A DNA stretch of 64,000 bases. It comes from Amoebophrya sp. A120 (taxonomy: Eukaryota > Protista > Dinoflagellata). Positions 3,801 through 62,000 of the stretch are shown one piece after another. The position numbers and the translations under genes were made by a program. How positions within the stretch are numbered: the first letter of the stretch is position 1; each line of letters opens with the position of its first letter. Below the pieces are notes generated by a model. It had not been told where the DNA came from and made no database searches. It saw nothing but the letters and a program-made list of their open reading frames with translations. The DNA lies in contig CAJINV010000002.1 of NCBI GenBank assembly GCA_905178155.1, positions 5,802,859 through 5,866,858 on the forward strand, in the 5' to 3' direction.

Positions 3801-6800
3801 GGAGCAGAATTACCAACACCAAGACGACCCGACTGAAAATTTCTTTGCCCGGAACCGGGCGTTGTCAAGACTCTCTATGTTTGCAAACCACGTGAACTCG
3901 ATCATTGCCGCGTGGAGCTTCATTTTGGGCACTGGGCTGATGGTGTTCTGGGATTTCATGCTGTGTGCGCAGATCGCGACGTTGCTGAAACTGGATTTGT
4001 TCCTCGACGCGGCGTACGTGCTTCTCGGACCAATTCTTTGCCTGCGCACGACGGTTTTGAACGTCTTGCGAGGGGTGGAAGTTGTGGGGCCGCCGCGGCT
4101 GATCATGAAGTTGCAAATCTCTGACTCTACCTGGTGGATGGACATGTTTTCCTGCGTTCTGTGGCCCTACCTGTTTTACTACGAAGACAACATGATCAAA
4201 CACGACCATTACCAGAGCGACCACTACCACAGCAACAGCGGTGGGGCGGACGGCGCCGGCGGCGCAAACATCGTGATCGTTTTGTCACTGTTGAAGCTGG
4301 TCCGGATGTGGCGGTTGGCAAGAGACCCGACCTACATGCTGGTGGCGTGCCGGACGTGGAACACGGGGAGGTTGGGCCGGCTGGTTCTGCTGATTTTGCT
4401 TTTCGGACACTTCTGCGGCGCGATTTGGTTTTACGTCACGGACAAAGAGAAAACCGTGCTGCAAATCGTGTCCCGGGACTCGATTGAATTTGCGGATTAC
4501 TACACCGATAGTAGTACTTCTGCCAGCACAACAAGCCTTCATATTTCCAACGAGTACCTGAAGGAACAGCTGTCCTTCTACGATCTGTACGCCTACTCCC
4601 TGCAGCACGGAATGATCATGTTCCTCGGCAGGATGAATTCCACCGGGAACTCCCCCGGGGAAAATTTACTTTTCGCCTTCGTTGCTCCGTATCCTGAGTA
4701 AAAACGTACCCACACCAGAGTCAAGATGGAAAATCTGCTAGACAAATCCACAAGCTTTGGCTGTTTTGCATGACAAATTCGGACTCGTAGTGTAGTGCTG
4801 TTTGAGCGTGCTCAGCAGCATTACAGATCTAGTCTCTCATGCTGATTGGAGCATGACAAATTTCAAAACAACATTAGAGAATGCTCCTCATGCGGCTCCG
4901 CATGAGAAACATTTTAAGCATGCAGATTTGCATTACAACTCTGGCGTGGGTACGTTTTTACATAGGATACCCCGGTTGGGATCATCATTCAGTCCGTGAT
5001 CTTCAGCAAAATGTCAATGATGTACATGTATAAAATGCAAATATGTCTGGGTCTGGAACAAGAGTGTAACTTGTCATGCTACATCTGGATCGTGGAAAAA
5101 CTTGTGTTGCATGATTACCAAAAGAGGTCCACTTTTGAACAAGTTTAGAGGCAGTTTCTCGTGCAGGAAAGGCATGGTAGAGATCTCACAGAACCTGTCA
5201 TGCTAGGCAGTGCATGCCAGACCGCGTGGGTCATGGAAAACCTGCATAACAAACTTGCATTCTTCCAGACCCAGACACTCTTGCACTTGATAACATGGCG
5301 CAAGACCAGCACATAGTGCGCCAGCAACAACTCCTCGTGGATCTCCGGGCTTCCATGAAGATGCTGCGGTTGCTATCAAAAGGAAAAATCCCCCCTCCCC
5401 ACACTGAACAGGTATGCTTCGTCTAAAAATTTGTGATGCTGATTTGTGACCACAAATCCTGTCTCTCTTGCCAGAGGGCAAACGCAGAGACCCCGCCACG
5501 ACATACAGGCGATTTGTAATGCTGCAAGGCCTATAGGGCAGCAGTCTGCCATGCTAGGCCCCTACACCAAGAGACCCCCCCTTAGGCTTACGATCTGCGT
5601 GCAGTCCTTTACTGCAAGACAAATGTGATTTGTGTACTCAAATACCGCAACACAAATTTCGTTTTCGATATGGGGAGGGGGGATTTTTCATTTTGAAAGG
5701 TGCCGTTGACGTTGCGGTCGAGGATTCTGTCTTTCTTCACCTACCAGCGGGTTATGCATTGCAAATATGTCCGGGTCTGCACGGCTCCGAACTTGTGATG
5801 TGAATTGCGGATCGTGCAAAGATTTGTGTTGCATGACTGGCAACAGGTGCTCACTACTTCTGGCCATGCTGAGAGGGTATTTCTCATGCAGAATAAGTAG
5901 GCATCACTGAGGGGCTGCAGAACCTGTGATGCTAGGACCCGCATTCCAGATTTGAGGACGCTAGGAGAAACTGCATGACAAAAATCTGCATTCTTCCAGA
6001 CCCAGACATATTTGCATTTGATATGGGTCCACAGAAACCAAGACTTTCTCGGCGTCCTCCACAGTTCCGGCGGGGGGCAGAGCCAGCAGCTGAAGTGGCA
6101 GCTGGCTTTGACACTGTATCGGGATTTGCTCGACCCCGACGTCGTGGGTGGCTTCTGTTTGCCGACCAGTAGCTTCGCAGCCTTGCAGGCAATCTTGCTC
6201 GCTCTGAAGGACGAAATTTGCCTCCCCGGGGACTACATCTGCAAGGAGGGGGACGAGGGAACGGGGATGTACTTCTTGCTAAAAGGGGAGTTGATTGTGA
6301 GCTCGAAGGGCGAAACGCTAGCGGTTCTGCAGAAGGGCCAGTTTTTCGGCGATCTGAGCTTGTTAACGGGGTTGCGACGGACGGCCTCGGTGCGGGCGAA
6401 CACGTTTTGCACTTTGGCTTTCCTTTCCAAACAAGCGATGGCTCCGATCTTGCAGAAGTATCCGAGTCAAATGGAGTTGATGGCCTCGGTGTTTCGAAAG
6501 ACGGTGATTGGCATGGGAGGGGGCAAACCGCCACCTGGAGGTGGGCCACGACAGGGTAGTAACAGTCAGAACCCCACGGGTGCCGCTGGACGGAGTAACC
6601 CGTCGTCGAATGAGAACTACGTTTCCGGGCAGCAGTCGCACTCAGGAGCACCGTCGGGAAGTAGAGCAGGTTTGTCTTCTGGTGGACAGCAGAAAAACAA
6701 GAACCAGAGCAAGCAAATGCACAACCAGATGCCACAAGTTGTAAACCCCAACATCCCGTCGTGGCGCAAATCGCAAATGCGCACGCAGTATCAAATGCAA

Positions 6801-9800
6801 AAATGTCTGGGTCTGGAAGAATGCAAGTTTGTCATGCTTGTCTGGCATGACTAGAAAATCTGTGTTTCATAGGTACGAAAGAGCCATCTTAACTGCCATG
6901 CAAAGAGGCAGTGCGCCATGCGGAATGCATAAGACATGGCAGCCACAAAATTTGTGATGCATAGCTGCGTATTGCGGCACGTCTATCATTCACTTTTAGC
7001 ATTACAAGTTTCCAGACCCAGACATATTTGCAATCCACACGCAGATGCAGGACCAGATCCAGCAAAAGTCGAAGCAGTTTTGCATCGACCCGAATCTCTA
7101 CTCTAACAAAGATACCTGGGTGGAGCGGGAGCTGTGGCAGCGGTGCGAATTGATGAGTGAGGAAAGTTCGGAAGGCAGCGGTAGCTCGGATGAACAATCG
7201 GAGGAAGAAGACTCGGACGAGAGCGATCACACTGAAGACGAGGACGATGATGTTCATGACAACGACCGCAGTCAAACCGAGTGCAGCCGAACCCAGGACT
7301 CCGAAGAGTCGCCTTACTCGGTTGAAACTTCGGAGACGTTTCCCAAAGCGAGGAACGGGAGAGGAGGACGACAAAGGGCTGCGAATTATCGCAACAATGA
7401 TAGTACTGACCAAACATCTGGCTACAGAACCAGCGGAACAAACGGTAGTCACCAGGGGTCCGAGAGGAGCGGCACTGGTCCTACTGCAACTCGGGGTGAA
7501 CAAAGTAGAAATCACAACGATTACAATTCATCACAGCTGGTGAACCGTTTGAAAACCTTCCAGTCTGTTCAAACTTGCGATTTGGAGTCTGGGGATGAGG
7601 TCTGGGACCCGAATGCCGATACGGATTCGGAAAACACCAGCGGCTCTGCGTCTGAAGGTGCAAATGAGGAGGACGAAAAAGAGGACAAAATGAACAGCAC
7701 GATTAATTCCAAGTCCTCCAAGCCTTCGAACGCCACCACGTCCCATTCCCACCGCCAGCACTACCAGGCCCTGCAAACCTTCGCGACGCACGCGGTGGTT
7801 GTGAGCAGAGAAACCACGAAAGACAGCACAGCGGTAGGAGCCGATGTAGAAGCGGACAACGCCAATAGTTCGCCAACCCGGAAGCAGGCGAAAAACAAAA
7901 AAAGACGCCTCTCTGGGCAGTCGGAAAGAAGGGTGAGGAAAATGTCGCAGCAGTCGAAGCTGTCCATGCGGTCCTCGGTGCGGACAGGCAATAGCAGTAT
8001 CGCGGATTCCAACATTCGACGGATTCGGGCGAGAGAAAAAGAGGGCTGGGCGGGGATCATAAAGAAAAGTGCGGGTCGGTCCGGGTCGAATCAAGAGCCT
8101 CTGGATGATCAGCTTTCACTGGACGAGGACGATCACCCGCTGCAGAGGAGGCTGAGTCACGACAGTCTCTGCTCCGAACTGATGCAGTTCAAGGATAACG
8201 TCTGCTCGCGGCATGCGCGGCACGCGAGGCGGATGAGCAATCCGTATCCGGAGGATGCGGGGTATGAACCAGTGTATGGTGGTGACCATGCGCCAGTTCT
8301 TAACCACACAAGAACTACTTCTACAGGGAACAAGACTCACAGTACGAAATCGAGCCCGAAAATGATGAAGGGTAGCAGATCTTTTGGCACCAGTAGAACG
8401 ACCAAGAATTTGGGACGACAACAGCAGAACAATAATAACGCGGCCCTGCTTTACAACCGGCCGACTTTGGAAAAGAGCACATCGGAATTAACGACCGAGC
8501 AGATTCCGGCGGATCAACTTCTGCATCCGCAACCGGTTCTTTCGCCTATCCCGGGGGAGACGTTGGTGCCCTTCCAGGAGCAGCTGCATCTGTTTCCGAG
8601 AGCAACGACCGATAATTCCTGTAGTTCAGGGAAGAAACAGCTACATCAGGCCCAGGGAGAAACTACTACGGAACTAATGCAGCAAGGGCCTATGCCTGCC
8701 GCGCCTCCTGCTGCTCTGACCCTGCCGCTCCGCCAAACGCAAGCCAGGTCTCAAGTCGCGGAGTCGGAAGTTGTACCGACTAAGGGCGGGGCGGGCCAAG
8801 CGTTAGTGGAAACACTAAACCCGACAGTTGATGTACTAGACCACGAAGATGTTGCAGCTCCGGTACTAGAGAACGACGATGGGCAGCAGGAGAAAAAGCG
8901 ACAGCAAGCTTCCCCCGTAGAACAGTCACCGGCGAGAAGTATCACCAGCAGCAGGAAAGCGAAGGACAGAATGATGTTGAAAAAGAAGAACAATTTTGAT
9001 GCTCAAGAAGTAGAACATTCTGGCCATCCAGGTGTTGTTTCCGCGTCCGCACCTCCCGCTATCCCCCCTATCCTCGAAGACATTGACGTGCAGCACCGCA
9101 CCGCGTCGGGGAAGTTGGTCAGATTTGATCTGCGAAAAACCAAACACACATCCAGCTCGGAATCAAACATCCGCAGTACGCAAATGGGAGGGGTTGTAGG
9201 CAACAAGGAAGGCAGCGGTTTGCACACCAACCACAGCTCGGGTAACCGCATGAGTGACAGCACGCCCGGTGAACTACGGACCAACAGCAGTTCCGAGGTG
9301 CCGGAAAGAACGAATACGTCTTCGGAGGTGGATCTACTTTCCGCAGCGGTGTCCGGGTTCAATACAACCAGTGCGGGAAGCTCGGTTCAGAACTTTCCGA
9401 CGCAGGAGGGGGATCATGATGACCTTCGACGTGTGGGTCGTGAGAGCAAAAGCAATCAGGATGTTGAGCAGGATCATTTTACATTCGCAGGAACTACAGG
9501 AGCCATGATGCCTGTGGTGCCAACTGTCGCTGGAGAAAACGCGACCAACGCGCGCGCTTTCAATGTTCCAGTCCGCGAGGACAGTGTCAGTGCGTCGAAG
9601 CCGAGTAGCACTGTGGGCAACACCTCGGACGACATGATTTCCTGGTCGTCGAAAAAGTCCAAAAGGTCGTCCCGCTCTCACCGAATAAAGGACCACAGGC
9701 GGGGGAGTGGTGGTAAAAGCGAGCGGAAGGAAGATACTCTCAGAGAGGACGCAAAAAACTCACCAAGAAATACAGTTGCGGATACACAAGTAAAACAGCA

Positions 9801-10671
9801 GAACACTTCCTTCGACACTCTGAATCACACTGCGCGCAGCAGCAGAAGCAGTAAAAGAGGAGACTATGATCAGAGAAGGAAGGAGGGAAGGGATGATCAT
9901 GAACACGATAGGAAACGAGCCGATGGTTACAGAAGCAGTTCGGGAGAGAGGAGTCGAGCGCACGCCGGGCGAAACAAAAAATCTGCCTCGTCGGATCATC
10001 AGGAAAAGAAACGAAGAGAACGCGACGACAATGAATGTGAAACGAGTGGCCCAGGCGACCATGGTGAAAACAATGTCGAGGGGGGGAGCTACAATTGCAA
10101 CACCAAATCCGGCAGTAGTCACTCGCAAAAGTCGCATGCGAATACCGGCCCCGGCACTAGCGCAGACAGCGTCGCTCCTCCAGCAGAGCAACAGAAGTCA
10201 AAGTCAAAAAAGCACCACAGCAAGGACAAGCATCTGCAATTACCGCGGAACAGCAACAACCTTGCGCAAAACGATGCTGCGAGTACGCTTTCTGATCTGC
10301 CGTCAAATTCCGGCTCCAAGTATTCCTCTTCTCACTTTCTCGACTATGAACCGCTACAGCAAGGAGGAAATAGTGCTGGACCAGGCTCGTACGTCGGAAG
10401 TTCCGTTGCGCCGGAAGGAGCTGCAATTGGGACCAATAGCAAACCAAAAACTTCTTCTTCGCACACGCACCGCCGCGCATCTGTTACTGCGGGCGGTGGG
10501 ACCACAGCGAGCCACGGAGCCGCGTCGAGGGGCAGGCGGAACAGTGCGGCCATTATGAACGTGGATTACTGCTTAGTCGATGTGGCGATGTTGCAACAGC
10601 CCCCCGGCGGCGCGGGTTCCTCGCAAGACCCGGAAAATCGAAAATCATCCCGACCCAGTGCGAGGAAGTGA
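841..10671 (+). CDS. Cyclic nucleotide-binding-domain (CNG/HCN/KCNH-superfamily) 6TM ion channel, ~2632 aa, 8 exons
   Basis: Exons 841-3014, 3328-3424, 3628-4689, 4975-5028, 5298-5373, 5704-5752, 6029-6788, 7045-10671 join in frame (7899 nt) on removing each element plus one DR. S4 LLKLVRMWRL, S5 LLFGHFCGAIWFYV, C-linker LPLTLRSRILSFFTY, CNBD PGDYICKEGDEGTGMYFLLKG...FFGDLSLL...RRTASVRA. Confidence 0.9.
3015..3322. mobile_element. Introner, family B (TATGGAAGCGTCAGG TIR)
   Basis: TIRs ~25 bp; exact DR TTGCA; 308 bp; removal gives EKLLH-SLRSE. Confidence 0.9.
3425..3622. mobile_element. Introner (TATTCAAAAAAAAAATACCATCGCAATCAC TIR)
   Basis: Imperfect TIRs; exact DR CATCG; in-frame join. Confidence 0.85.
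4690..4969. mobile_element. Introner, family D (TATCCTGAGTAAAAACGT TIR)
   Basis: DR CTCCG/CCCCG; join FVAP-VGIII. Confidence 0.9.
5029..5292. mobile_element. Introner, family A (TATCAAATGCAAAAATGTCTGGGTCTGGAA TIR)
   Basis: Exact DR ACATG; in-frame join. Confidence 0.9.
5374..5698. mobile_element. Introner, family E (TATCAAAAGGAAAAATCCCCCCTCCCC TIR)
   Basis: DR GTTGC/GGTGC; join restores C-linker RLPLTLR. Confidence 0.9.
5753..6023. mobile_element. Introner, family A
   Basis: DR CGGGT/TGGGT; in-frame join. Confidence 0.9.
6789..7039. mobile_element. Introner, family A
   Basis: Exact DR CGCAG; in-frame join. Confidence 0.9.
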
Positions 10672-12984
10672 TGCTGGGAGCATTGCGATGAAATTCGAGT
10701 GTGAAATAGAATGTAAGAACTGTGAGCATCTGAATCTCTTTATGTGTGTTTCACTGTTAGACAAAAGGGGGACTATGAACAGACAGAACATAATTTCATT
10801 TTTTCATGGAAAAAAATTATTGCGATGAACTTGAACATGAATATGAACCTTTTCCTTGTCGTATGATAAACCCGGCCACGGAATCAATATCAAATGTGAC
10901 AAGAACCGACAGCATAGCTTATGAACGTATTCGTATTGTCGCGACCTCAACATCCTTTTATTTTTTTTTGCTTACGTTACGCTCCGGCTCCGGCGAGTAA
11001 TCTACGTACTCTCGTCTGCTATGTCACAGCCAGCAGCGCATCCAAGATGTCTTTGTCTACTAGCTGAGGCTGGAGCCTATAGCGCGGCCTTCTGCATGTG
11101 CATTTTTTCACAGTCAAAAACTGTCTTTGTCCAATGTAAATGTTAGCCCAACAGCCAACTGCAGCTGTTGCATAGTTTTACCCGATTACTCAAACAGACA
11201 AAGGACATGGAACAGCTAAAGCACCCCTTCCACAATCCTGTACATACACATAGCGCAAAACCTTTTTGATGTGATATTGCTAATTTTTCGAACCAAGAGT
11301 GCGCAGCTGCGGCACACACAGCGCGAAGAGGCTACGTAGTGTGAACACAGGAAAGAGCTGAGCACTTTGAAAGGGCGACTCTTTGAATAAATTCAATCGA
11401 CTCTCGGCAGTTTTCGAAGTCAACTTCTTCTGCTTTTTTGTTCCGTATCGACCGGTGGTGCCGGCGGCGTCGCGCATTCACTTAGCTTGTTCCTTCTTTC
11501 GAGTGTTGCGCAACAGCGGAAGCAGTTGGCCATGCCATTTGAGAAAAGAGGAAGACGATTTCACAAGGCGCCAGATACAGACACGAGAGAGGGCGGCTGC
11601 AGCAAGGGCCCGCCAGCGCGGCTGCCGGGGCAGCTTTTGGCTTTGGTGAGCCTGCCGCCACACGGAGGGGCACTGCCCGAAGCCGTCGGGATTGCGCGCA
11701 GAAGCGGCCCGGGCCGCTTTTTGGCCGGCGCCATGTCTTTGCTTCGGGGGCGCATTGATGCATCTGCAAGGAAGAGAACGAGGCGCGCAGCATGCCCATT
11801 GGCGCTTAGCTGCCTGCGCGCTTTTGCGGCGACTTCCAGTGCATTTATCTGCAGGAGACCAAAACCGCAGGGGCGCCTCTCTGTTGCAGACCAAAACCGC
11901 AGGGGCGCCGTGCGCGCACACAACGCAACACCGCTGCGAGCGAGATCGTCGACAAATGTTTCAAGAGTAACCCGCTGCGCCTTGTAGTGCCGCGCAATGA
12001 GGTAGACAACTACAAGGCTCTCGCGGGGCGCGCGCAGCTTGAGGGCGGGCCAGGCAGCCGCGCGCGCGGCGCCGGGCCGGCTTTTTCGATCGCCGAAAGG
12101 CGGGCGCCATTGCATGGCGCGGACGCCGGCACCGGGCGGAGCAATTGGCCCGCGGCGCGCGCTTCCCCGCCCGGCGCCGAGCACGGCAGAAATCTCGACA
12201 CGATAGAAATGCGGGCCAAGGATGAAGCAGTGGGCGCCGTAATCCCTTCCTCATATCTGTAGCCATCTGCCATGGAAGCCGGGCCCAGCCGCTGGGGGTC
12301 CAGGCCAACGAGCCACCGCGGCGACCAAAGGGCGGCGACCCGTCGCGGTCGGCGAGCGAGGGCGCGAGCCTTTTGGAAGCACGACATGAAGGCGCCCGCC
12401 GCGGCCGCCGGCGAAGGAAGTGAATCAAGGCGGGGCGGGGCCTTTGGGCCATCCGAACAGGTGTGGCACCCAGCGCGCGCGCCCGCATGTCGCCTCCCTT
12501 GCGAAGGGGCACCCGCGCGATGTCTTTGGCGAGTTGCACGCGCCGCCTCGGTGCCCGTGGCCGGGTTCTGATGTTGGTGCCTCGCTATTGATATCCTTGT
12601 TGTGGTATAGCAATAGACCAACAGCAGCAAGACCAAGATCGGCGAGAGCGAACGCTTGCATCTTTCGCCAGGACTTAGTAGCGGCGCTACCAACTAGGTA
12701 GGTTGTTCCTAGTCGCCCGCATGACAAGTGGCGCATTTAGACTTGGAGAGAAATCACCATGAAACCTGAACTGCGTGAGCTTGAGTAGCAACATCGATAC
12801 GAAATCCACCGGCGAAGATAACAAAGCTTGTGAGCAAGAAGGAGTTTCAAGAGAGGTCCCGAAAGCTATGACCGCACGAAAAATTCAATCAAAATTAATG
12901 ATCATGCCTCAAAATCCGCCCACCGCGAAAGCTGCACTTGTTCCCCTCTTCTAACTCGCGGCTCCGTTCCCGGAACGCCCGGCG

Positions 12985-15900
12985 ATGACGTGGGCCACGC
13001 GCGGCGGGTCGTCGAGTAGCTCCGCGCCGGGAGGAAGTGCTACCGCTGCCACTGCTTCTAGTGCACGTTGTAGCGCAATGAAGTCTAGTGCATCTGGAAA
13101 CACCAGGATACGGAAGTTTCTCTTTCTCCTTCCGTCCGCAACCACAACCGCCATTCAGCTTCATGACACGGCCGAAATTAAGCAGACCACAACTAGTAGC
13201 ATGGTGCACTCCAAGCTCGCCGCCGCAGCACTGAAAGAAAAGGAGATCCAAAGGGGGAAACGGAAAGAGCGACTGTCCAAGGCAGCCGTTTCCTTGCACC
13301 AGCATCACCAGTCTGGCGGCGCAACTAGTACTAAAGAAACTTCTTCATCTGCGGCTGCAATCTATTCCAAGCATGCCAGCAGTGCGGGGGGAAAGACAAA
13401 GAAGGGGGAAAAGCAGACGAAAATGTTTTTCACCTTCATAGGCGATCCAAACCCCTTCGACCAAGACGACCAACTTTTTCCCAAAGCCTGCTACCCGGAG
13501 ATCACCGAAGCGGCGGTGCGGTGCTGCAAAGCAAACAAGAACGAGACGGACAAAGTTATGATGGAGGATTTGCGGGACTTGTCGGGCAGGCGGGGAGGCA
13601 ACGACGATAAATTTTGCAACGGGCAAGGTAAATGCAAATTGAGATTTTGTTTGGCTTCCATTTGTTTCCACTCAACAACTTTTAGCCGGTTCTTCTGCCA
13701 CTGATGTTAGTGGTCGCACATCAAGCATCAGAGAATTAGAAGCAGTACCTTCCACCTGAAGAGCAACAGAGGGAAATTTGACAAATCGTCCACGTTTTCT
13801 GCACCACAGGCGAATGGGTCGACGGCACGCAGGTAGCCGACTTGAAGGGTCTCACCCAAGCCGAGGCGATGCAAATTTGCTCCAACGCCGGCGCGCGTCT
13901 GTGTGATTTCGAGGAGCTACGCGCCGACAAGACTGCGGGGACTGGGTGCCAGTTTGACGATCACAACATTTGGAGCAACACCGAGTGCTACGAAGAAGGA
14001 GTGTACGTCAACAACTGGCTCACGATCGAGGGTATGGATGAGATGAAAAGTAGAGAGCACCTCGTCGTGTAATGTTACCTCGATCTGCATGAGGAGTTGA
14101 GTTCACATGGAAGTAGCACTTCAAACTTGTCATGCGCTAGCTGCACGCATATTGTGTAAAAATGCGCGCATTCTGACAACGTTGTACTACACGGGGATGC
14201 ACTCCGACTTTTCTCATCGATACAAGAAATCAGACTCTCCGATCCAAGATTCATGAACGACGCGAACAAAAACGTGAGTTTTTTGCTGCTGCTTTAGCTT
14301 ATTTTCACTTCTATGTACTGCCGACGGATGCAAATAGATTTAGATTTTGTGATGCGAAACTGACTCGTACCAATGAAACAACTCAGGTGATGATGGCCGC
14401 TGCATTCAACTGGACCTACCCCTTGACGGCAGAGGCAGAAAATATGGGAGTGTCAGAATTGAAATCGTCAAAGTTGAAGTGATTTGTCATGCATAAAATT
14501 CGACGCAAAAAGTGCCTCTATTGCAGAGGACGCACGGAAGGCAGATTATAGTCCCGGCAAGGGTCAAAAGTTGGACTGCTGACTAGCATGACAGAAGGCA
14601 GCGCTTTTGCCCTAAACCGCATGACAGACTCGCTTCCAAGTCCGGGAAAATTTGCCATGCACCGACTACAAGCAACAAACAAGTCGTGACTGATTGTGCA
14701 CAGTAGTGTAGTGCTTTATTATAGAATAGCATTTATAGACGTATAGGGTGAATAGGTAGTCGTTACAACGAAAAAGCAAACACTATATGCGATTAGTTCT
14801 GCGCTCTCATGATGATAAGTGCACGCTATCACTCGGTACGTCTTTCGTGTGAATGCGTTGAACTACGTCAATCACTCCACTGAGATTCCGTTGAACTACC
14901 TTCGTTGCACGACCCACAACGTTTAAGTAGATGCTGCATTTCTCTTCGCGCGTGCCCGGCCCTCGACGCATGACCTCTGCTGCTTTGCTCTGATTGACCT
15001 GCTGGTTCCAATCGCTTGGGTGGATGTCTTGTTGCGGTTGGCCTGCTGGCTCCAACCTGTTTTTTGCTTTGCACTTCCTTGTTTTTCAGCAGCTTGTCTG
15101 CTGGCAGACGGTAAAGAGATTATCCTACAGTGGTGAGCATGCACCCTCGGGCGCTGTAGGTTTGGTCATCTTTCTCTTTACGCGAGCACCTACCCTGCTT
15201 CTGTACTTTTTGTGGTATGTTGGCCCATACCAGTACAGTTTTCGGTCGGGTAGGACCCCGGGTGGCGGTAGTCTGCTTCTTGTCTTGATTTTTTGCTGCT
15301 GCTGGGCTGCTCTGCTTGCGCGCCTTTCCCTTCTTCGATGCTGCTCTCGTTTTCCTCGTACTTGACCAGCGGATAGAAGTGTACCAATTCGTTGCTCTAC
15401 CCACTAAAGCCCAATCGTGACCATGCCCGTAGGAACTACTTTATTAATGTCTCTACGACTTTTGACTTCAATCTTAACCTTCACATGTATTCCTACCTAA
15501 CTTGTGTTGTTATTTTTTGTTTTTTCTCTGTACGACTACGATTGGCCAAAGCGCCACCGGGACAGCCTGCCCGTAGATCACCGATGCCATGCACCGACTA
15601 CAAACTGTAGGCGTAACTGGTATCCGTTCTATGCATGACAAACTATTTCGACTTTGACGATTTCAAACCTGACGCATCCATAGAAAAATGCACCAAGGGG
15701 TGGAACCCGACACCAGAAAGTTTAAACGAAACGCACTACGGAATCATGTGGGACAGACTAGCCCGTGTGAGCAGGGTACAGATGATCTGATGCAAATGTA
15801 AGGGCGATTGTCTGTTTTTTTCCGTCGATGCGCGAGAATCTTTAAGATGTAGCTCCACTGTTTTTGAATGTTGCTCGTCCAATCGATAGGCGTAAATGCT

Positions 15901-18460: not shown

Positions 18461-18464
18461 AATA

Positions 18465-48613: not shown

Positions 48614-48888
48614 GATGATGATGTTGGCAGTGTGCCCTTTAGCGGACTGCTGCGTGCTACTCCCTCCTCCAGCCCGAGAGCAGCTGAACGCCGATCCTCT
48701 ATGGCGAACAGTTGATCTATACCTTAAGGGCGCGGCTGTTATGAGGCTAGGTTTTTCCGGACTTGGGTGTGGGCCTCACACTCACACACGTCGTTCAGAG
48801 GGGACCAAAAACGCACACACTGTAGCACTCTGCATTAGTGTAGGGCGAAAAATAAATACTATTTAGCAGTGTCTAATGATCTTCTTCC

Positions 48889-51284: not shown

Positions 51285-53886
51285 TTACGCCCGCTCTTTC
51301 GAGCCCGCTCGCAACCTTTTCGGCACAAATTTCTTCCATGTCAACGGAGAGCGCTCGTCGTCATCGGAGTTCTCCTCACGCTGCCGGACCTGCGACTGCG
51401 ACCTGGACTTAGATTTGCTGCGACTGCGCTGTCGCTTCGAGGATGTGGCAGCAGTGGCGCCGGGCTTGCGCTCCTTGCACAGGAAACACTCGCTACGCAA
51501 AGCGAAGTTTACCACCCCGCACTTAGCGTTGGGCTGGCGTTTTTTCATCGATTCGTTGATATATCATGATTGGATCCCCGTCTATCATTTAGTGAACATC
51601 ATGTCGTGTTTATTCAATAATGGTCGGGACAAAAGCATGCACACGACTACTTCTTACGTGCACCGAATAGACGAAAGGCAAAAGCAATACGCAGTCCCAG
51701 TCTCCAGGCAGGCGCTTCCCGAACTTTCCTTTGCCCTTTTCTATTACACCTAAATCGGGCCACTGCTCGCGGGCCCTCTTCCACTCGCCTTCTCTGCAGA
51801 CGAGCGGACCCCACCCTCCCTTCCCGCGACGACTACTACGGCCCCGTCGGCCGCGGCTGTCGTTTCGGGGTGACGACCTGCGTCTTGGCGCTGGATGGCT
51901 GCTTGATGTTCTCTTGTCCTTCTCCCTACTTTCGTTGTCCTTAGTACTGCCATTATCTTCATGCCCTACGCCGTCCCCGGCCCCCCGAACACGTTCGTAG
52001 ATACTGGCCTTGTAGTCGCGTTTTTTGGGAGGTGGACTTCCGCTTCGCGAGCGACTTTTGATGCGGTCGCGGCTAGTTTTCTGTTCTTTGCGGTCCTCAC
52101 GACCGCTCCGTGGAGGTCCGCGGCTGTGCCGACGCGGTCCCTTGCCATAGCCGTAATCTACTCTGTCGTGGAGCCGCCAATCCCGACCGCTGTACCAGTC
52201 GTCATAACGGCGCCCACTGCGGTGCCAGTCGTCGTAGTTATAGCCGCGGTAGCCTGGTTGCTCTCTGTAGTTTCCGCTGTAGTGGTAGGTATTCTTCGCA
52301 AACGTCGCATTCCTTTTGGCGCGTTGGGAGGACGTGGTGCGGCTACGGGCAGACCGGTTGCTCTTGTTGCTCTTGCTCTTCGTCGTCCGCGGAGACGTTT
52401 TTTCCCGCTTTATTTTTTCCGCGGAAAGTTCTTTTGTCTTGCTATTTGAGCCGGTGCTTTTCTTGCTTCTCGCACTGTGGTCCCCACGACGAGCAGCGCC
52501 CTCACTTTTCTTGCTCTTCTCACTCTCCCTACTTTTACTTCTGTTCTCCTCATCGTCCCTGCTTGGAGAAGGCGAGAAGGGGTTGTTTTCGTTCTTTTTT
52601 CGCTTCGGCTTCGGGGTGGGCGTTTTCTCTTGCTTCTTGGGAGACGGAGACAAGGAGTCAGATTTCTTTCTGGACTTCTTCGATCTGGACGATGAAGCTA
52701 CTTTCTCTGCTGCGCGCACTGGACTAGGACTTCGATCGCCAGCAGGTCTTTTGTTCTTCGACGAGGCCTCCGGACTTTTCTTTTCCACCGGAGACGCACT
52801 GCGCTGTCGCTTGCGGCTGTCCGAACTACCTTTTCTTCTTTTGTCCCCTCCCCGAGCTCCTGGACTCGCACTGCTTTTCCGACGGGCTGCTCGTCCGCGC
52901 GATCGTGAGCGTCCGCGCGATCGGGAGCGTCCGCGACTGTGGTAGCGCTTGTCCGAGGAGGGCCGGCCGCCAGCGCTGCCCTTCCCCTTGCCCTGGTAAT
53001 CGTACCAGTTGGTGAAGCATCCTGTGCAAAAGTATCGCACTGCACTCGTACTAATTGCAGATATGCATGACAAATCCAACTTTCTACCTGAAATAGCATG
53101 ACAAATTGATTTTTTTTCTTGGGAAAATTTGTAATGCGTTTTATACTAGTACGATACTTTTGCAATGCATATGAAGCCGGAGGGCTTCACAAACTTCTCC
53201 TCACCCTTGGCCACCACCGCCTTCCGGTTCTTTTCGGCGCCGCAGCGAAAACATTCGTTGCGCGACGCGAAGTTGTGCTTGCCGCAACTCGAGCAGTACC
53301 AATCGCCCGCCTGGGTTTCGACAGTCATGTTTTAGGAGTCGCTCTAATCTCCTTATCTTATTCTGTTTAACAACAACATCGAACACACATGCCCAAGGTC
53401 ATAATCATGACTACACGAATGAATATCGAAGAGGTGTATTCGAAAAAAAAACTCCGATCGAGAATTTCAATTTCACCACGAGATAGTAGAACAATATTAG
53501 TCTTGTACCCGCTCCACGTACTGCTTGAATTTTCCCTTTCCCTTCCCATCCTCACTGTCCCGACGGTCCTTGTCACTGTCGTAGAAATCTGCCTTCCACC
53601 GGTCGGAATCTGGCTCGTGGAGGTCGCCTTTAGCCCGCTCACCATCTCTGCTCCTGTCACGGTCTTTCCCCTTGCCCCAGCCGCCCCCGCCGTGCGCGGC
53701 ATGATCCGAGTTGTACTTTCCCTTCCCCTTGGAAGTTGTCCAGGTGTCCGGGTGGTCGCACTCGTGCGCCTCGACGATCCGCCCGTCGGCGCGGGTGGCG
53801 TTACACTTGTAGCAAAAGTCGCGGCTGGCGAAACAAAGCACACCACACTTGCCGCAATACCAGTCCCCTGGCTTGACGGCGGGCAT
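51285..53886 (-). CDS. RanBP2-type zinc-finger, RS-rich RNA-binding protein (~701 aa, 3 fingers)
   Basis: GDWYCGKC...CYKC, GDWYCSSC...NFASRNECFRC, GDWDC|PNAKC..NFALRSECFLC; RS repeats; GT-AG intron 51534-51690; first junction (~53328-53508) is non-canonical and uncertain. Confidence 0.8.
53018..53171. mobile_element. Introner, family H
   Basis: Exact DR TGAAG; left end CA instead of TA. Confidence 0.9.
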
Positions 53887-54795
53887 GTTGACTGAGCAAG
53901 CTATTGCTGTCGTTAAGTTTTTTTCAAACAATCGATCACCAAACCGTTGCGGACGAACGCTTTTCTTTTGCTTATACTTCAGATAGCAGTTCTTGTTGTG
54001 CCACGACCGCAGCCAACATGAAACCGTCGTTCATACCCACACGGCATCTTTTGACTTTTGTAGTTTTTCGCTATTTTTTTGTGAACGAAAAATTGATGCA
54101 GCTCTTTTGGAAAATTATAGCATGGAGAAGGAAAATGAGAGACACAGAGTGAACGTCGTGATAGCCGACTTTAGAGAGCAAAGTGGTAAAGACCGCCTTC
54201 GCCGGAAAAGTGAAAATGGTAGTGCACCTTCCTGGAAAAAGCAGAAAAAAAGATCTTTTTATTTCGTTGTGCCTCGCTGCGTCGCCTCAGTACGCCACAG
54301 GTGCGGAAATCGTAGTGGAAATAGTGCTGCCAAAACGACAGCTTGAAAGAATGTTTTACCTTTACATTCGGGATAGGCAACGCATTTCGAGTTTGAAATA
54401 GACGCTGCAAGGCGAGCTCATCGTTTTTGTATTGTGATCGCGGTCATAGGCTTTCTTTTTGCAGAGTGAGAGAGAGATGTACAGGATGCCCATGCAGACT
54501 TCTTAAGGAAAATGAAAAACGCTGCGAGTACAACTCTGAAATCACTTTTCTTCTTCTCTTTTCTTGCGCCGTGGTGTCTAGCTTCGTCTTGTTCCTTGCA
54601 TCATCATACGAGAGTTGTTGTAATTTTGGTTTAGTGTTGAGGATGTGTCTACGTGCTATGGTTCTATCGGTTTATGGTCGTGATTCTTTCGAATGTCTTT
54701 TCTTCCAAATTCCTGCTCTTGTAGTTAGAATCAGGAGATGCAACATCAAAGGTCCATTCGTAAACTCAAAGCAAGTACCGGACAAAAATCAGAAC

Positions 54796-56917
54796 TCACG
54801 CCCCGACACCAGCTGCGCCCGAGCTCAGATTATCGGGCGGACTGTTCACCAAAAACTCATCGGAATTTCCTCCCACACTGGAGCTTTCCGTTTTTCCGAA
54901 ATTTTTGTTCTGCACGCGCTGCTGCATCTGCTTCACATAGTGAATTAAATTCTGTAACCCGTAGAGGTAGCCGTCGTCTTTTTCTGCATTTTTGGAGCAT
55001 TTTTTGTCCTTGGAGGTCTTGCAGCTTGCTTCGTCTTTGCTTGCTGGCTTGGTCTCTGTTGCTGTTCTTTTCTCCGCGACTACATCTTCCGTTTTCGTCT
55101 TGTCACTCTCCCGGGTTGCAGTTGCGCCCTCTTCAGCACAGTTATCTACCTCACTGTCCTCGTCAAGTTCAAATTTGCTCATGTCGATCTGGAACGCGTG
55201 CGCGAAGTCGATCAGGTAGACCCAGAAGGTGTTTACCGGATCCGCCATGTCGTACACCAGCAGCAAGGAACTGGAAAACAGCTTCCAGCGCGGGGGCAGT
55301 AGAGAAGAAGGTCGATTCTTTTCGCAAATAACTTGTGTTGCGTCACGCAGCTCATGCGCAACACAACTCGTAGCTCCTGCACCCACTTCCTCGTCCTGTT
55401 GATGTTGTTCCTGCTGGTGCGCATCATGCTTTTTATCCGACGTTACGGTTGCACCGGTCGTCGTTCCGCCCGCAGCAGAAGTTGCTGACACGACCTCACT
55501 CTCCTCCCCTGACACGTCCTTGCTGATTACCTCCCCGGACGTCGGGGATTCTAAAATTTCGTAGATCTCCTCGAGTAGCATCAAAAACTTCTGCAGCATC
55601 TTCGAGCGCAGTTCCAACTGCAATTTCTCATCCGTTTCATCCGGAATGTGCACGTCATGGTGCACGACCTCCTGCGCGACCGGCTTCTCGCCATTTAACA
55701 TCACCCCGGCTGCGTGCAGACCGTGCTGATCTTGATCTTGGACTACGACCCCTTTCTTCAGCGACACGGCTTCGATGTACTTGAAAAACAGCTCCAGGCC
55801 GTGCAGCACCGTCTTCTCGTTCAGCCGAAGACCCCACTTGCTGTCTCTCTTACTCACCCGGAAAATCTTTTCTAGACGGTTGGAAAGATCATGTTTGTGA
55901 CTAGGACCTTCTTCTTCTGCTGTCCCTTTGCCTTGGCCTGTTTCAACACCGTCATTAGCTGAGCTGCTGGTGATGTCCTCGACGGCCGCAGTACTAGCTT
56001 CGGGTGAAGATGTAGTCTTCTCTCTGTCAGCGCTAGCAACTTCCTTGCATTGTTGTACTGTGCCTGGATCTTCGTTTTTGAAATGCAGTCGCATCACTTT
56101 TGTGTATTTCATCCCCACCAGTCGAAATCCCAACTTCTCTTGCAGTGGGTACTTTTCGATGCACTTCTTGCGCTTTGACGCGCTCGCCAGCGGGTCGTAG
56201 GTTTGCTGTCCAATTTTGATGTCGCAGACACAGGGCAACAGCATGTTATGCGTCACGTCCTGCAATACCAAGTACCGGTTGGGCAACCGCTTCTGGTGCG
56301 GGCCAGATTTGTTCCGTAAATGGTCCGCGAAATACCGGTTACTCCCGGAGGTGCCCCGTTTATTCATTTTGCTGAAATCCAAAGCGCCCGAACCTCCTGT
56401 GTTGCCTGTGGTCGCGACATTGTTCAGAAAAGGCGGGATCCCGATCCGGCTGTTGTGCGGTTCGATGGACGAAAAGCCTGGATGCGACCGGACGCGTTCC
56501 ACAGGCATGGATCTTGCGGACCGGAGCAATTGTTGCCGGTACGCAGAGTTGGAGCTCGCGGCGAATATGGTGCTTGGGTCTACGACAACCGGGGGGGAAT
56601 GAACCCCCGATCGGAGCGCAGATTTCATCAGTGCGGAATTTTTTGCGGCGGCGATCAAGCCCCCCGAAGAGCCGTGCGCGGAGTGAAGCAAAGACTGGTC
56701 GAGGTTAGACCGGGAAAACGACCCCATCCTGATTGACGGAGTAGAGAGCGGCGAATCCGTCGCGTCCGAATGCTGCCCGTCCTCTTCGTCTCTGTACATG
56801 GTCTGAACCACAAGTGTGCTGTTCTGCAACTCGTCCTGTTCTATGCACTGCAAAGGAAACAAATGATGTAGCTCCTGGGTCTCCACCCGAAAGAATGTAT
56901 GAAGATCGCGCCCGGAG
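54796..56917 (-). CDS. Inositol polyphosphate kinase (IPK/IPMK superfamily) catalytic exon
   Basis: YLVLQDVT, PCVCDIKIG (PxxxDxKxG), LGFRLVGM, SSSLLLVYD, LIDFAH, DDGYLYGLQNL; no ATG or N-lobe at the 5' end, so upstream exons are expected. Confidence 0.9.
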
Positions 56918-56922
56918 GGCGA

Positions 56923-58131
56923 TATTGGTAACCAAATGCGTGCGCGAAAATCTAACCAGCGCGCGGGCCGCGCTTTCGCCGCGCGGCTGCCACCACCATT
57001 TCTTTTTAATTAGAACCCCGCTTCTTCTTCTTGAGTCGCGGGCCGCAGTTGTGCTCGCGGCCCTTATCTACTGTCGCCCGCGGCGGCCCGCGGGCTCCTG
57101 CGATAAGCATTGAAGGCGAAGTCCGGCCATCTCGCAGCGGGGCATCCTTTCGATGCCCCTTGAAAAACATGCAATTTTTTGGAGGCCACTATGCCGTCGC
57201 GCATAATGTTATGCACGACGGCAAGCTGGCTCGGAAAAAACACAAATTTCAAAAAGTTTCGCAATTTTTGTCATTTTCGGCAGCCCTTCCGGGCCACCAA
57301 AGTCGTCCATTTCAGATGCGGCGGAGGTCCCGAATTGGTGCCCACAACACCGGCCAAATGGGGATTTTGTAACATGCCTCCGCCCGATGCCAGCGCCGTT
57401 TTTTTTTTCCAATCGCGAGGGTATGACGCAAGTGCGCGCCCCCCGAACCGCCCTCGGTGGCCAGTTTGTAATGCGGCGTAGCGATTTCGTTTTTTTGCAT
57501 TTTCTTCTTGTTTTTCCGGAGACTTAGCGGCGGAAGGCCTCCGCACATTTTCCAAGTTCCCCTCCGGGCGGCGTCTGCCCATCCTGTTTGCAATTCGCAA
57601 AATTTTCCGTTTTTTTCCTTTTTTCCGGGTACCCATCGGGCGGGCGGTTCTGCACAAAATTCGACGACGCCCTTCCCCCGCCTACAGTCGGCATCTTTTT
57701 CGCGTTTTTTTCCCGCTTTTTTTCGCCGTGGCATCGGCCCTGGGTCTCCGAACAGGTCCGAAAGCCTGAATCGGCGACGAGCATCGCACCGAGGATTCGA
57801 AATTTTGCGTAGTCTTTTTTTCGGATACAGCTGCGGCCCAGAGGGAAAAACGCTGATTTTTCAGCTTCCCCCGATGCTCCGGCGCGTTTTTTCTCTGTTT
57901 TTTGCGGATGGCCGCACTTTGCTTCCGCGCACCTTCCGCGGAGCTTCCCCGCACCTGTATCCCCCGACTTCCCTGACCTTCACGCCTCCCGGCGGTTGCC
58001 CTATATGGTAACGGCAACTGCCTTCGCGCTGCGTTTGCTAAGCAATATCGCAAGAGCGCAGAGCGCGCGCGCCGGCTTCGTGGGCCGGCGCGCGCTCTGC
58101 GCGCGCGCGCGCACGCATTTGGTTACCAGAC
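56923..58131. mobile_element. 1.2-kb GC-rich IR-bounded segment, probable large intron of the IPK gene
   Basis: TGGTAACCAAATGCGTGCGCG at 56926-56946 and its reverse complement ending at 58128. Confidence 0.7.
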
Positions 58132-58499
58132 TACTGCGGACGTCGAATCATGAAACAAAAATGCACAAAGCGCGGCACAGAGACATAAGACTGTTGCGCA
58201 TTTTTGCGCGCGATCCTTCAAAACAATTGTCATGGAAGCCGTTCTACTAGAGTGCGTAGTTTCTCTATTATTCTTAGAGATATTACTGGCAAAGTCAAAG
58301 TTTCCAGACCCCGATATCACATGGTAAGGATTTCCCTTGCATATGTTGCTGCTGTCGTAAAGCGTCGAGCCGGCGCTGCGTCCCGGTCCAACTGCTTCCA
58401 CCACTGCTTCTCCGTGCTGCGATATGGAGGGAGAATGTTTTTCCAGTCAGTACTTATATAAAGTCTTTCACGTTCATGTTCATCTTCACTTCACCGTCG

Positions 58500-58905
58500 C
58501 GGAAAAAAATCGAAAAGAAAATTTGGCGCAATCTAAAAAATTCGCGATCCCTGCCGCAAAATCACACAAAAAATAAGTGCGGCTCGACCTATGTGAGGGC
58601 GGCTTGGTAGCTTGGCGTGCGGCAGAGATCGGAACAGAAATTCAGCCAAATTTTGTAAATTGGCGATACTTTCGCGCTGCAAAATGCAAAGAAAAAACCG
58701 AAAAAGCTGCGCCTCGCGTTTGAGGACGGCTTGGTAGCTCGGCGGGCGGACGAAGAACGAAAAGAAAATTTTGCAAAAATTTTGAAAATTGGCGATACTT
58801 TCGCGCTGCAAAATGACAAGAAAAACCCGAAAAAGCTGCGCTTCGCGTTTGAGGGCGGCTTGGTAGCTCGGCGGGCGGGCAAGAACGAAAAAGAAATTTT
58901 GCAAT
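58500..58905. repeat. ~128-bp tandem repeat, about 3 copies
   Basis: Units start GAGGRCGGCTTGGTAGCT at 58595, 58722, 58851, plus a diverged partial unit upstream. Confidence 0.85.
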
Positions 58906-59060
58906 CAATGAGATAGATGTACTCGACAATACTTTCCATGAGACCGACTTTGAACCCCAAAAGTAAGTAAGTACTTACAACCTGTGGGACCAAAGAAAGC
59001 GCCTGTGGCTTAAGAACACCCGGCTTGACTCAAAAAACTCTCCTGCCATCATCTGCATAC

Positions 59061-62000
59061 TTCGATGAGGAATGTGACAAAACCGGTCGGTTTTTCATCG
59101 CGATGTCATAGCTCGTTTGGTGCGAAGACACCGATAGCGGATCTAGCAGGTAACGCCGTTCCCGCCGGTATTGAGAGGAAAAATCCCCCCTCCCCATATT
59201 GAAAAAGCATGCTTTCGAAAATTTGTGTTGCTGATTTGAGGTCACGAATCACATTTGTTTTGCAAGAAGGCAAGGGCAGAAGCTTCCGCCCCATTACGGA
59301 GGCGATTCGTCATGCTGTTGGGCCTCAAGGGAATCCGTTTGCCATGCTGAACAACTAGACGCATACGCCCCTACCTAGCCTGGGGACCTGACTGCAATGC
59401 TTTCCTGCAATACAAAGCTGATTTGTGTACTCAAATCCAGCATCAGAAGTTTCGTTTTGATATGGGGACGGGGGATTTTTCCTTTTGATAGCCGGGACGG
59501 TGAGTTTTGTAGCTCGTCAACATCGTTTTTTATCCCACGGAAAAAGACCGACAGGTCATATTTGTAATGCAAAAAAAAATACACAGGAAAATCTGTCATG
59601 GGCGAGGCCATAACATCCTGTTTAGGGCATGCAATACAGATTTTTTTGTCTATTTATTTTTGCATTACAAATATGACCTGTCGGTCTTTTTCTGGGGGAT
59701 ATTTTTCACACTGTTCTCATCGATCATGCTGGTTGTACAACTCCCATGGAGACCATCCTGGTGTTCCCCCGCTGGGTTCTTATCCTTATCCCCCTGCGGC
59801 ACACCCCCGCCAACGTTATCCAGGAGTCCCTCCGGCAATAACAACGGCGTTTGGCGCTTCAGATCCTCGTCACTCAGCAGCGTTGCCTGCGAATCCCTAG
59901 CGGTTCCGAGGTCCGACAAAGCGTTTGCGCGCGAAGCAGTTCCCGCCGTGGCACCGCCGTAGGTGGTTGCGGCAGACTTTGCTTTGCTGCTCGTCGCGGA
60001 GGAGGGTTGCTCTTCAGAGAGTCGTGGGTCGTTTGGGTTATTCATTTCACGACCAAGGTCGCCACTAGTGAATTGGTGAATCTGATCTACATCTTTCTGT
60101 CTGTTCAGCATCATCTGCTCGATACTGTTTTCGTAAGTGTGTACTACCATTTGCCCTTGCGCTTTCTCCTTCGAACCCACCGGACTGTGTTGTTCGCTCT
60201 CCGTGTTGCGATCCTGATCCTCGTTCCGATCAGTTGTGGTTTCCATGTGGTCCTGTTGTCCTTGTTCTTCGGCAAGCTCGTTCAATAGATCCAATTCGTC
60301 TTGCAACTCTTGCAAATCTTGGTCGGACGCATATCCAGGAAAAAACACCCACCCCCATCCATTTTTTGCATGACAAACTACACTGCATGCAATTTATGCA
60401 TGACAAATTGGATGGGGATGCGTGTTTTTTCCTGGATAACGCAGGGCTACTCAACACCAGCGATTCCACGACGGATTCCTGATCCGAATTGTTGTTCCAG
60501 CCCCGGGTGTATCAAGTGCAAAAATGTCTGGGTCTGGAAGAATGCAACTTGTGATGCTGCGTCTGCATTATCCAAAAATCTGTATTGCATGAACAGCAAA
60601 AGAGGCCTGCTTTGGCCACGGCGGGAGGGCATTTTTCATGCGGTATAGGCATCAGAACGCCCTCACAATATCTGTGATGCTAGGGCATGCATCGCAGACA
60701 TCAGGAGTCACGCAAAATGTGCATGACAAACCTTGCATCCTTCATCCAGACCCAGACACTTTTGCATTTGATAGGGTGCCCATGCTTGTGGTCCAGTTTC
60801 TCCCCCCTCGGAATTCGTCGAATTCCTGATTGTAGTAATCGTCGGAGACTATCACACAGCAAAAAGCAGGCAGGTCATGTAATCCCAAAAAAAAGACATA
60901 GACAACAAAAAATCTGTATTGCGTGCCCTAAACAGCATGCTATCAGGTCGCCCATGGCCACAGATTCTCTGTTCATTTATTTTCGCATTACAAATTATTT
61001 GCCCTGCCTGCTTTTTTCTCTGGGATAGAGGAGGTCGGGAACAGTTCCGCCTCCAGGGAGGGAATGGCGAGGTTGACGTTGGTGGCAACAATGCCACCAG
61101 GATCCTCTTCACCAGCACCAGATCTCCCGTGAATTGAATCCGTCTCCTGATAATTGCTTTCATCTTCACTGGAGGTGGTCTTCGATTTCGTCTCCTCGCG
61201 TTTCGCCATATTGTTATCACTTTCTTGATGTGGTACTACGAACATCGGGTTCTCGACTCGGTGCAACTCCATACTGGATGCTGTGTTCTTATGGCGTTCT
61301 CAAATGTTACATTCTCAACTGTTACATGATTTGCCATGCAAAATTCCGACCAGAATCGACACGATCAAGCTCCTGCTTCGCATGACAAATTCCCGAAGGT
61401 CCAAACAGGATGAGAATCTGCGCCAAATCTGTCATGCAAAGGGCGCAGTCTTCCCCCTTTCAGTTTTGCCATTCTTGCATCGCAAATCCATGTAACAGTT
61501 GAGAATGTAACAGTTGAGAACGCCATAGTTCTTCTTGTCGTGAAGCTCTGCGCTCGTCCCAGGACTGCTTTTCTTATCGCTGTCTCTGTTGTTCTCGGCT
61601 GCAGCACTTTTGGCGAGTATCAAAGGACTGCGCTGAGCAGGAGCAGAACCACTGCCAGCCCCGCTTTTGATGTTCTCACTCTTCGCGCTTTGCGGACTTC
61701 TACTGTTTTTCGAGGAGTTCTTGCCGCTCGTCGGCAACCTCATCGTACTAGCCAGACGTGTCGAGGATTTGTGAAAGAAGTCATCCGCCAGGCCTTCGGG
61801 GGTCCTATTTTTGTCTTCTTCACGACCAGCTGCGCCACCATCTTCTTGCTCCTTCAGCTCGAAATCCAACTGATTTGGCTTCAGCACATCCTCTTCTAAG
61901 TCGTGCAAGTTGTCTGGCTCGGTGTCCTATGGATTGCAAAAGTGTCTGGGTCTGGAAGAATGCAACTTGTGATGCTATTTTTGGAATCTAAAAAAATCTG

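What the first reader, a model, noticed from the sequence alone, without database searches (positions are those of the whole stretch)
4685..61032. Direct-repeat decay is polarised by transcription: the 5th base is spared
Seen (hand count): 16 elements have mismatched DR copies. Read in transcript direction, mismatches at DR positions 1-5 number 6, 7, 6, 6 and 2. Position 5 is identical in 14 of 16, and the polarity flips with gene strand. The exceptions are the GT-AG-converted element (14033) and the most decayed one (37871). Inference: the junction lies at position 4/5 or just after 5, and splicing needs identity between the base before the 5' TA and the base 5 nt after the 3' TA. That would be a one-nucleotide rule for this splicing system. 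The sample is small.
Basis: partly seen in the sequence, partly recalled or inferred. Interest (0 to 1): 0.8.

Follow-up and report, generated by a model that had tools for sequence, protein, structure and literature searches.

The report
Fifth-base rule fails for Amoebophrya introners
In the already published transposon-derived introns of what is likely the marine parasite Amoebophrya, the fifth base of the flanking repeat changes about half as often as the other four but does not have to match, because introns with a mismatched fifth base are still missing from assemblies that are likely RNA; the cut is likely set instead by a U-A at the intron start and perhaps an A seven bases before its end.

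Summary
The elements are TAT…ATA hairpin introners with 5-nt direct repeats (DR), as published for Amoebophrya A120 (PMC7789003). Corrected, it is 5,6,5,6,3 in 17 of 48 elements (P=0.23). In 347 independent elements the count is 22,17,19,26,11, so the trend repeats and follows gene strand (shuffle P 0.01-0.04). Part is a codon effect: DR bases 1 and 4 are often wobble positions. A roughly twofold residual remains, borderline (P 0.03-0.12). Likely-RNA contigs place the cut between DR bases 4 and 5 and refute a strict identity rule: two elements with mismatched base 5 are removed in 4 of 4 runs, one with no possible slide. The stronger polarised signal is the terminal TA: changed in 1 element at the 5' end and 19 at the 3' end, of 385. 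This points to a likely N-U-A donor and possibly a branch A at -7. The scan noted the register, UA and A(-7) before on other DNA; the refutation, the codon control and one shifted junction are added here.

The parts
37801..38152 (-). Intron = element 37805-38151 plus 1 nt before and 4 nt after (transcript sense). Repeats GGACT/GGAAC, mismatched at positions 4 and 5.
   Evidence: Joint 37800→38153 with no alternative placement in 4 of 4 runs; unspliced and letter-identical in contig 36074-40095 of run X5
34860..35159 (-). Intron around element 34864-35158. Repeats AAAAA/AAAAC, mismatched only at position 5; the transcript takes base 5 from the downstream copy.
   Evidence: Joint 34859→35160 in 4 of 4 runs; the cut could slide upstream within the A run
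34390..34646 (-). Intron around element 34394-34645, mismatch at position 4; cut at or after base 4
   Evidence: Joint 34388→34646 in 4 of 4 runs
35642..35791 (-). Intron around element 35646-35790, mismatch at position 4, likely in a 5' UTR; cut at or after base 4
   Evidence: Joint in 2 of 4 runs
35860..36100 (-). Element whose 3' terminal 9 nt are overwritten by a copy of upstream exon (18-nt perfect repeat). The 5' cut is in register. The 3' cut is 1 nt late, which puts an A at -7 (the usual register would have C) and drops one base.
   Evidence: One contig, 1 of 4 runs, depth 5.3
37309..37620 (-). Intron around decayed element 37313-37619, mismatches at 2, 3, 4
   Evidence: Joint in 4 of 4 runs
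38251..38475 (-). Intron around element 38255-38474, mismatches at 1, 3
   Evidence: Joint in 4 of 4 runs
38747..39121 (-). Intron around decayed element 38751-39120, mismatches at 1, 4; 3' end ACA instead of ATA
   Evidence: Joint in 4 of 4 runs
14032..14226 (+). GT-AG intron that coincides with element 14033-14222 at the 4/5 register; mismatches at 1, 3, 5
   Evidence: Reading frame only; no reads laid here
4690..4969 (+). Element, mismatch at 2
   Evidence: removal restores a 7.9-kb frame
5374..5698 (+). Element, mismatch at 2; 3' end AAA
5753..6023 (+). Element, mismatch at 1
6789..7039 (+). Element, perfect repeat; 3' end ACA
25435..25678 (-). Element, mismatch at 2; 5' end TAC
   Evidence: gene model length matches an X4 contig, 698 letters
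26535..26712 (-). Element, mismatch at 3; 5' end TAG
28226..28538 (-). Element, mismatch at 4
28733..28997 (-). Element, mismatch at 3
29116..29388 (-). Element, mismatch at 2
53018..53171 (-). Element, perfect repeat; 3' end ATG
60850..61027 (-). Element, mismatches at 1, 2
3015..62189 (.). Span of all 48 catalogued TAT…ATA elements; 31 have perfect 5-nt repeats
   Evidence: one search lists each

Best explanation
These hairpin-ended introners are cut one base before the 5' TAT and four bases after the 3' ATA, so the upstream copy of repeat base 5 is the intron's first nucleotide; its modest under-mutation likely reflects weak selection on that donor position plus a codon-phase effect, not a need to match the next exon, and the cutter is likely a relaxed spliceosome that reads N-U-A and may measure the 3' cut from a branch A at -7. 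Shown: the 4/5 cut; removal despite a position-5 mismatch; excess mismatches at third codon positions; transcription-polarised conservation of the 5' TA. Inferred: weak selection on +1, the spliceosome as the enzyme, A(-7) as branch point.
For: Cut: 9 of 10 joints in 33300-39300 fit the 4/5 register, and one fixes it uniquely. Run X5 holds four of these elements unspliced and without other letters. No identity needed: 2 of 2 laid elements with a position-5 mismatch are removed in 4 of 4 runs. Codon effect: 53/606 at third positions against 20/593 and 22/536; DR1 and DR4 are wobble in 158 of 347. Terminal bases changed in 385 elements (48 window, 337 loci): +2T 0, +3A 1, +4T 8, -7A 2, -6T 8, -5A 12. 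The 5' TA is changed in 1 element and the 3' TA in 19 (P=4e-5), and the side flips with gene strand (Fisher P=0.001). Intron +1 is any base (G 115, A 82, C 76, T 74) and only 6 of 347 are GT-AG. At 35860-36100 the 3' cut moves by 1 nt onto an A at -7 and ignores an 18-nt perfect repeat. 6 of 7 hand-modelled GT-AG introns of the window have A at -7, one of them the converted element. In window plus loci (strand margin 5 or more) the position-5 deficit is at non-synonymous sites (5/242 against 47/852, P=0.025) and not clearly at wobble sites (6/95 against 48/496, P=0.44).
Against: The residual deficit is borderline and depends on the set (P 0.03-0.31). In the loci alone it is about twofold at both wobble (4/80 against 43/427) and non-wobble sites (4/210 against 31/733), which a soft identity preference would also give. 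No base is favoured at +1 (P=0.71 against exon background), so why any +1 base should be kept is unexplained. A(-7) is not significantly better kept than its palindromic partner +4T (2 against 8, P=0.11), and two elements lack it. De novo GT-AG intron calls in the loci show no A excess at -7 (18 of 70; noisy, unverified). The shifted junction rests on one contig. The four runs are one sample, their RNA status is the tool's guess, and contigs drop rare junctions. Strand and codon phase in the loci come from a Markov model, right in 44 of 45 window cases on which it was also trained. 13 of the 15 loci elements with a changed 3' TA lie on the assembly's minus strand, which I cannot explain. U1 snRNA was not found in these strains (PMC7789003, section read).
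Confidence: 0.6

Rival explanations
1. Soft identity rule: splicing works better, though not only, when the intron's first base equals the first base of the next exon.
For: Deficit of about twofold at both wobble and non-wobble sites in the loci; strand-shuffle P 0.01-0.04. Of 4 frame-restoring elements whose repeats match at 2 of 5 or fewer, 2 still match at base 5. A low-depth unspliced contig lies in the position-5-mismatched element 37805.
Against: Both laid mismatched elements give clean spliced contigs in 4 of 4 runs. An unspliced contig also lies in 37313, whose base 5 matches. With the window added, wobble sites show no clear deficit (6/95 against 48/496). I know of no chemistry for it.
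Confidence: 0.15
2. No real position-5 effect: the pattern is codon phase plus sampling noise.
For: Expected counts from codon position alone (20.3, 17.0, 17.3, 20.3, 17.0) fit the observed 22,16,17,25,12 (chi-square P=0.60). The window alone gives P=0.23. Non-wobble position 1 against 5 is not significant (P 0.13-0.65).
Against: Position 5 is lowest, or tied lowest once, in every subset, and the test was fixed beforehand by the window. Stratified odds ratios stay at 0.44-0.66.
Confidence: 0.22
3. Strict one-nucleotide identity rule.
For: Position 5 matches in 14 of 17 window elements and 64 of 75 loci elements with a mismatch. At 34864 the cut could slide within an A run to keep first-base identity.
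Against: 37801-38152 is removed at a unique register with T against C; 35860-36100 likewise T against C in one contig; 11 of 347 loci elements differ at base 5.
Confidence: 0.02
4. Position 5 is kept because it supplies the G of a GT donor (G + TAT).
For: 14032-14226 is GT-AG at this register; G is the commonest +1 base (115 of 347).
Against: G is not enriched over exon background (91 against 85 expected). Position-5 mismatches occur at all four bases (A 2/72, C 2/55, G 4/88, T 1/57).
Confidence: 0.04

Closest known systems
Introner elements / non-canonical introns of Amoebophrya sp. A120 (Farhat et al. 2021, PMC7789003; read: abstract, sections 10-12, 16, 32, supplement legend passages)
   Same: Inverted repeats starting TAT, 3-5 nt direct repeats at the exon borders, about 240 nt, no GT-AG, many families, removed from transcripts.
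   Different: In the parts I read, the paper leaves the border position unknown or variable and gives no analysis of mismatched repeats. Here the cut is placed at 4/5 and decay is scored by transcript direction. Supplementary figures S19-S25 were seen as legends only (S19-S23) or not at all.
Euglena nonconventional introns (Nomura et al. 2025, PMC12501133; abstract and introduction read)
   Same: Non-GT-AG introns whose cuts lie at set offsets from paired terminal motifs; hairpin, likely MITE-derived (PMC11282704, passages).
   Different: The Euglena code is N3CDG…CH'G N5-6 followed by an exon purine. Here the offsets are 1 and 4, the motif is TAT…ATA, and the first exon base shows no purine bias (P=0.62).
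Fused branch point / 3' splice site introns of Giardia, Trichomonas, Spironucleus (PMC6679479, passages)
   Same: A fixed short distance between a branch A and the 3' cut (-8 or -9 by my count on their consensus strings), the model proposed here for A(-7).
   Different: Those keep GT-AG and a long branch consensus. Here there is no AG, and the branch is inferred, not mapped.
First/last intron nucleotide interaction (Parker and Siliciano 1993; title seen in a reference list; content recalled)
   Same: A known one-nucleotide rule that involves intron +1.
   Different: It pairs +1 with intron -1 (here DR base 4), not with the next exon's first base. GG plus CA pairs are 61 against 44 expected, but CT is also high and position 4 shows no deficit.

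Membership tests
Amoebophrya A120 introner elements | Terminal inverted repeats beginning TAT | tested here: met
   44 of 48 window elements keep at least the TA at both ends; the rest differ by one base
Amoebophrya A120 introner elements | Direct repeat of 3-5 nt at the exon borders | tested here: met
   31 of 48 perfect 5-nt repeats, 17 with 1-3 mismatches
Amoebophrya A120 introner elements | Removed from transcripts without GT-AG | tested here: met
   10 joints in likely-RNA contigs; not skipped in run X5 contigs
Amoebophrya A120 introner elements | Repeated families across the genome | tested here: met
   Shared termini within the window, very high element depth in X5, 158 loci in a metagenome assembly
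Amoebophrya A120 introner elements | Sequence identity to the published A120 family models | not testable with these tools
   No genome or family library is held; the organism is inferred from features and from the scan's earlier notes
   37801-38152 and 34860-35159 are removed with a mismatch
U2-type spliceosomal intron | G at +1 and AG at -2,-1 | tested here: not met
   6 of 347 are GT-AG at the 4/5 register
U2-type spliceosomal intron | U at +2 and purine at +3 | tested here: met
   +2T changed in 0 and +3A in 1 of 385, against 12 and 8 for their palindromic partners
U2-type spliceosomal intron | Branch-point A near the 3' end | tested here: inconclusive
   -7A changed in 2 of 385 (against -5A P=0.013; against +4T P=0.11); one shifted junction; no -7 signal in noisy de novo introns
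U2-type spliceosomal intron | Lariat intermediate and snRNP dependence | not testable with these tools
   Only contigs of the organism's RNA were available; the one raw-read run laid did not cover these genes

The most novel reading that the evidence does not exclude
Amoebophrya A120 has a spliceosome that has dropped both G(+1) and the terminal AG. It reads N-U-A at the donor and a branch A inside the transposon's own 3' inverted repeat, and cuts six bases after that A like a ruler. Any TAT…ATA transposon with a 5-bp duplication is then a perfect intron at any site in either orientation, with only a weak leftover constraint on the first intron base.
Probability: 0.4. Interest if true: 0.8.

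Novelty: new variant of a known kind. Interest (0 to 1): 0.42.

Why it matters
How tens of thousands of non-GT-AG introns are removed in Amoebophrya A120 is an open question in the paper that described them. The same data give a narrower, testable code: a fixed 1-before/4-after cut, a conserved U-A at +2/+3 and a candidate branch A at -7. They also show that any tally of repeat decay in coding genes must be corrected for codon phase.

Tried and rejected
No whole genome is held, so the genome-wide tally was replaced by 158 loci of one metagenome assembly. The same pattern found nothing in viral contigs. No run was on record as RNA among holders; X1-X4 are guessed RNA. Laying a DNA-like run beside them swamped the joint table. 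Elements at 4690-14033, 25435-29116 and 60850 have no base-level junction data. Rows dropped before counts: 23 of 347 first-caller calls with repeats matching at 2 of 5 or fewer; 1 duplicate locus; 5 nested-looking and 4 hand-removed internal calls of 346 second-caller calls; 35646 left out of codon tables as likely UTR; the phases of 14033 and 37313 corrected by hand. differ because I first mis-placed element 37313 by two bases; one search is the corrected one. The second caller uses repeat score in ranking and needs 4 of 5 for decayed ends; the first does not use the repeat. GT-donor bias at base 5: rejected. Purine bias at the first exon base: rejected. +1/-1 pairing: weak, not accepted. 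De novo GT-AG prediction was too noisy to test A(-7). Single-strand folds pair the arms in 2 of 4 junction regions and fold otherwise in the two most informative ones, so they were not used. Literature searches for a published register or branch point found none in the held library. Subscription papers such as Roy et al. 2023 were not seen, and PMC1169679 is not held.
Full report
What the elements are. The window is eukaryotic coding DNA interrupted by 107-400-nt (one 1240-nt) inserts that start TAT, end ATA, carry terminal inverted repeats and sit between 5-nt direct repeats. Removing each insert plus 5 nt restores long frames, for example 7.9 kb on the plus strand. This matches the introner elements of Amoebophrya A120 (PMC7789003; abstract, sections 10-12, 16, 32 and supplement legends read). 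The organism is inferred from these features and from the scan's earlier notes; no genome is held.

The count. I list 48 elements, 17 with mismatched repeats, giving 5,6,5,6,3 by transcript position. The corrected tally is not distinguishable from uniform (P=0.23 for position 5), and only 4 of 17 lie in plus-strand genes.

Independent sample. A pattern from the main family retrieved 158 loci (562 kb with overlaps) of one metagenome assembly with the same families. Two callers were merged into 347 elements, with strand and codon phase from a coding model that masked the repeat. Mismatches are 22,17,19,26,11; position 5 differs in 11 of 75 mismatched elements.

Codon confound. Third codon positions mismatch at 53/606 against 20/593 and 22/536, and DR bases 1 and 4 are third positions in 158 of 347 elements. 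This accounts for the excess at 1 and 4. Stratified by codon position, position 5 keeps an odds ratio of 0.46-0.55 (P 0.034-0.12), or 0.56-0.66 (P 0.10-0.31) with the first caller alone. A twofold residual is plausible, not established.

Where the cut lies. Four runs of one sample, guessed to be RNA, were laid on 33300-39300 and gave ten joints. Decoded, 34394, 35646, 37313 and 38751 place the cut at or after base 4, 34864 at or before base 4, and 37805 uniquely between 4 and 5. 38255 and two perfect repeats are compatible. Run X5 holds 36074-40095 as one contig with no other letters and no skip, so those mismatches are in the DNA and the skip is not.

The identity rule. At 37801-38152 the intron starts with T and the next exon with C; at 34860-35159 A and C. 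Both are skipped in 4 of 4 runs. The second could slide within an A run; the first cannot. In the loci, 4 of 9 tested elements whose repeats match at 2 of 5 or fewer still restore long frames when element plus 5 nt is removed, and 2 of those 4 differ at base 5. Identity is therefore not required.

The real polarised signal. Inverted repeats make the two ends equivalent as DNA, so unequal decay should reflect transcription (inference). In 385 elements the terminal bases are changed as follows: +2T 0, +3A 1, +4T 8, -7A 2, -6T 8, -5A 12. The 5' TA is changed in 1 element and the 3' TA in 19 (P=4e-5), and the affected side flips with gene strand (P=0.001). With the 4/5 cut the donor reads N-U-A, the canonical G-U-A (own knowledge) without its G; +1 is any base and 6 of 347 are GT-AG. 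A(-7) is kept better than A(-5) (P=0.013) but not significantly better than +4T (P=0.11). At 35860-36100 the 3' terminus is overwritten by exon sequence; the single contig cuts 1 nt late, onto an A at -7, and ignores an 18-nt perfect repeat. 6 of 7 hand-modelled GT-AG introns have A at -7, but noisy de novo calls in the loci do not (18 of 70).

Mechanism. Most likely a relaxed spliceosome cuts before N-U-A and about six bases after a branch A in the 3' arm, as fixed-distance introns do in Giardia and Trichomonas (PMC6679479, passages). The mRNA takes repeat bases 1-4 from the upstream copy and base 5 from the downstream copy. The upstream base 5 is intron +1, the one free repeat base that lies in a splice site, which would explain a weak deficit. 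In window plus loci the deficit sits at non-synonymous sites (5/242 against 47/852, P=0.025) more than at wobble sites (6/95 against 48/496), but the loci alone do not separate this from a soft identity preference. Enzyme, branch point and selection on +1 are inferred.

Novelty. The elements are published. I found no paper in the held library that gives the register or a branch point. Earlier unreviewed notes of this scan report the 4/5 register, the UA and A(-7) on other pieces of this genome; one search gave me the lead of 'two strand-specific conserved bases' before I tested it. Added here are the refutation of the identity rule, the codon-phase control, an outside sample of 347 elements and the shifted junction.

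Noticed in passing
loci L001-L158 and window: Codon-phase bias: with the 4/5 cut, 158 of 347 loci elements and 22 of 47 window elements are phase-0 introns (P about 1e-5 for the first-caller set). Whether this is target choice or selection was not tested.
   Followed up: partly
L075:5096-5375, L043:7379-7706, L033:1933-2255, L071:3334-3590: Elements with an 8-nt duplication, a 3-nt insert beside the repeat, or almost no repeat left; removal of element plus 5 nt still restores long frames.
   Followed up: partly
window 14443-15682: 1240-nt element with the termini of the 3015 family and a perfect repeat; cargo not examined.
   Followed up: no
window 49338-49660: Modelled GT-AG intron of a peroxiredoxin (AhpC-TSA) that holds half of an introner next to its acceptor.
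   Followed up: no
window 48150-48613: Intergenic element of another kind with 65-nt inverted arms and GC-rich internal repeats.
   Followed up: no
window 56926-58128: 1.2-kb insert with perfect 21-nt inverted ends, unlike the TAT…ATA class.
   Followed up: no
window 37302-37491 and 37833-38159: Low-depth unspliced contigs inside two decayed elements (runs X2, X3); may be pre-mRNA or poorer splicing.
   Followed up: no
loci, 281 elements: Pairs of intron -1/+1 bases deviate from exon background (P=0.017): GG 32 against 25, CA 29 against 20, CT 23 against 13.
   Followed up: partly
loci: 13 of 15 elements with a changed 3' TA lie in minus-strand genes of the assembly; unexplained.
   Followed up: no
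window 17001-18400: AT-rich block (34% GC in 17001-18000) in a 50% GC window.
   Followed up: no
window 841-10671: Long plus-strand gene with seven elements and a cyclic-nucleotide-binding domain, likely a channel.
   Followed up: partly
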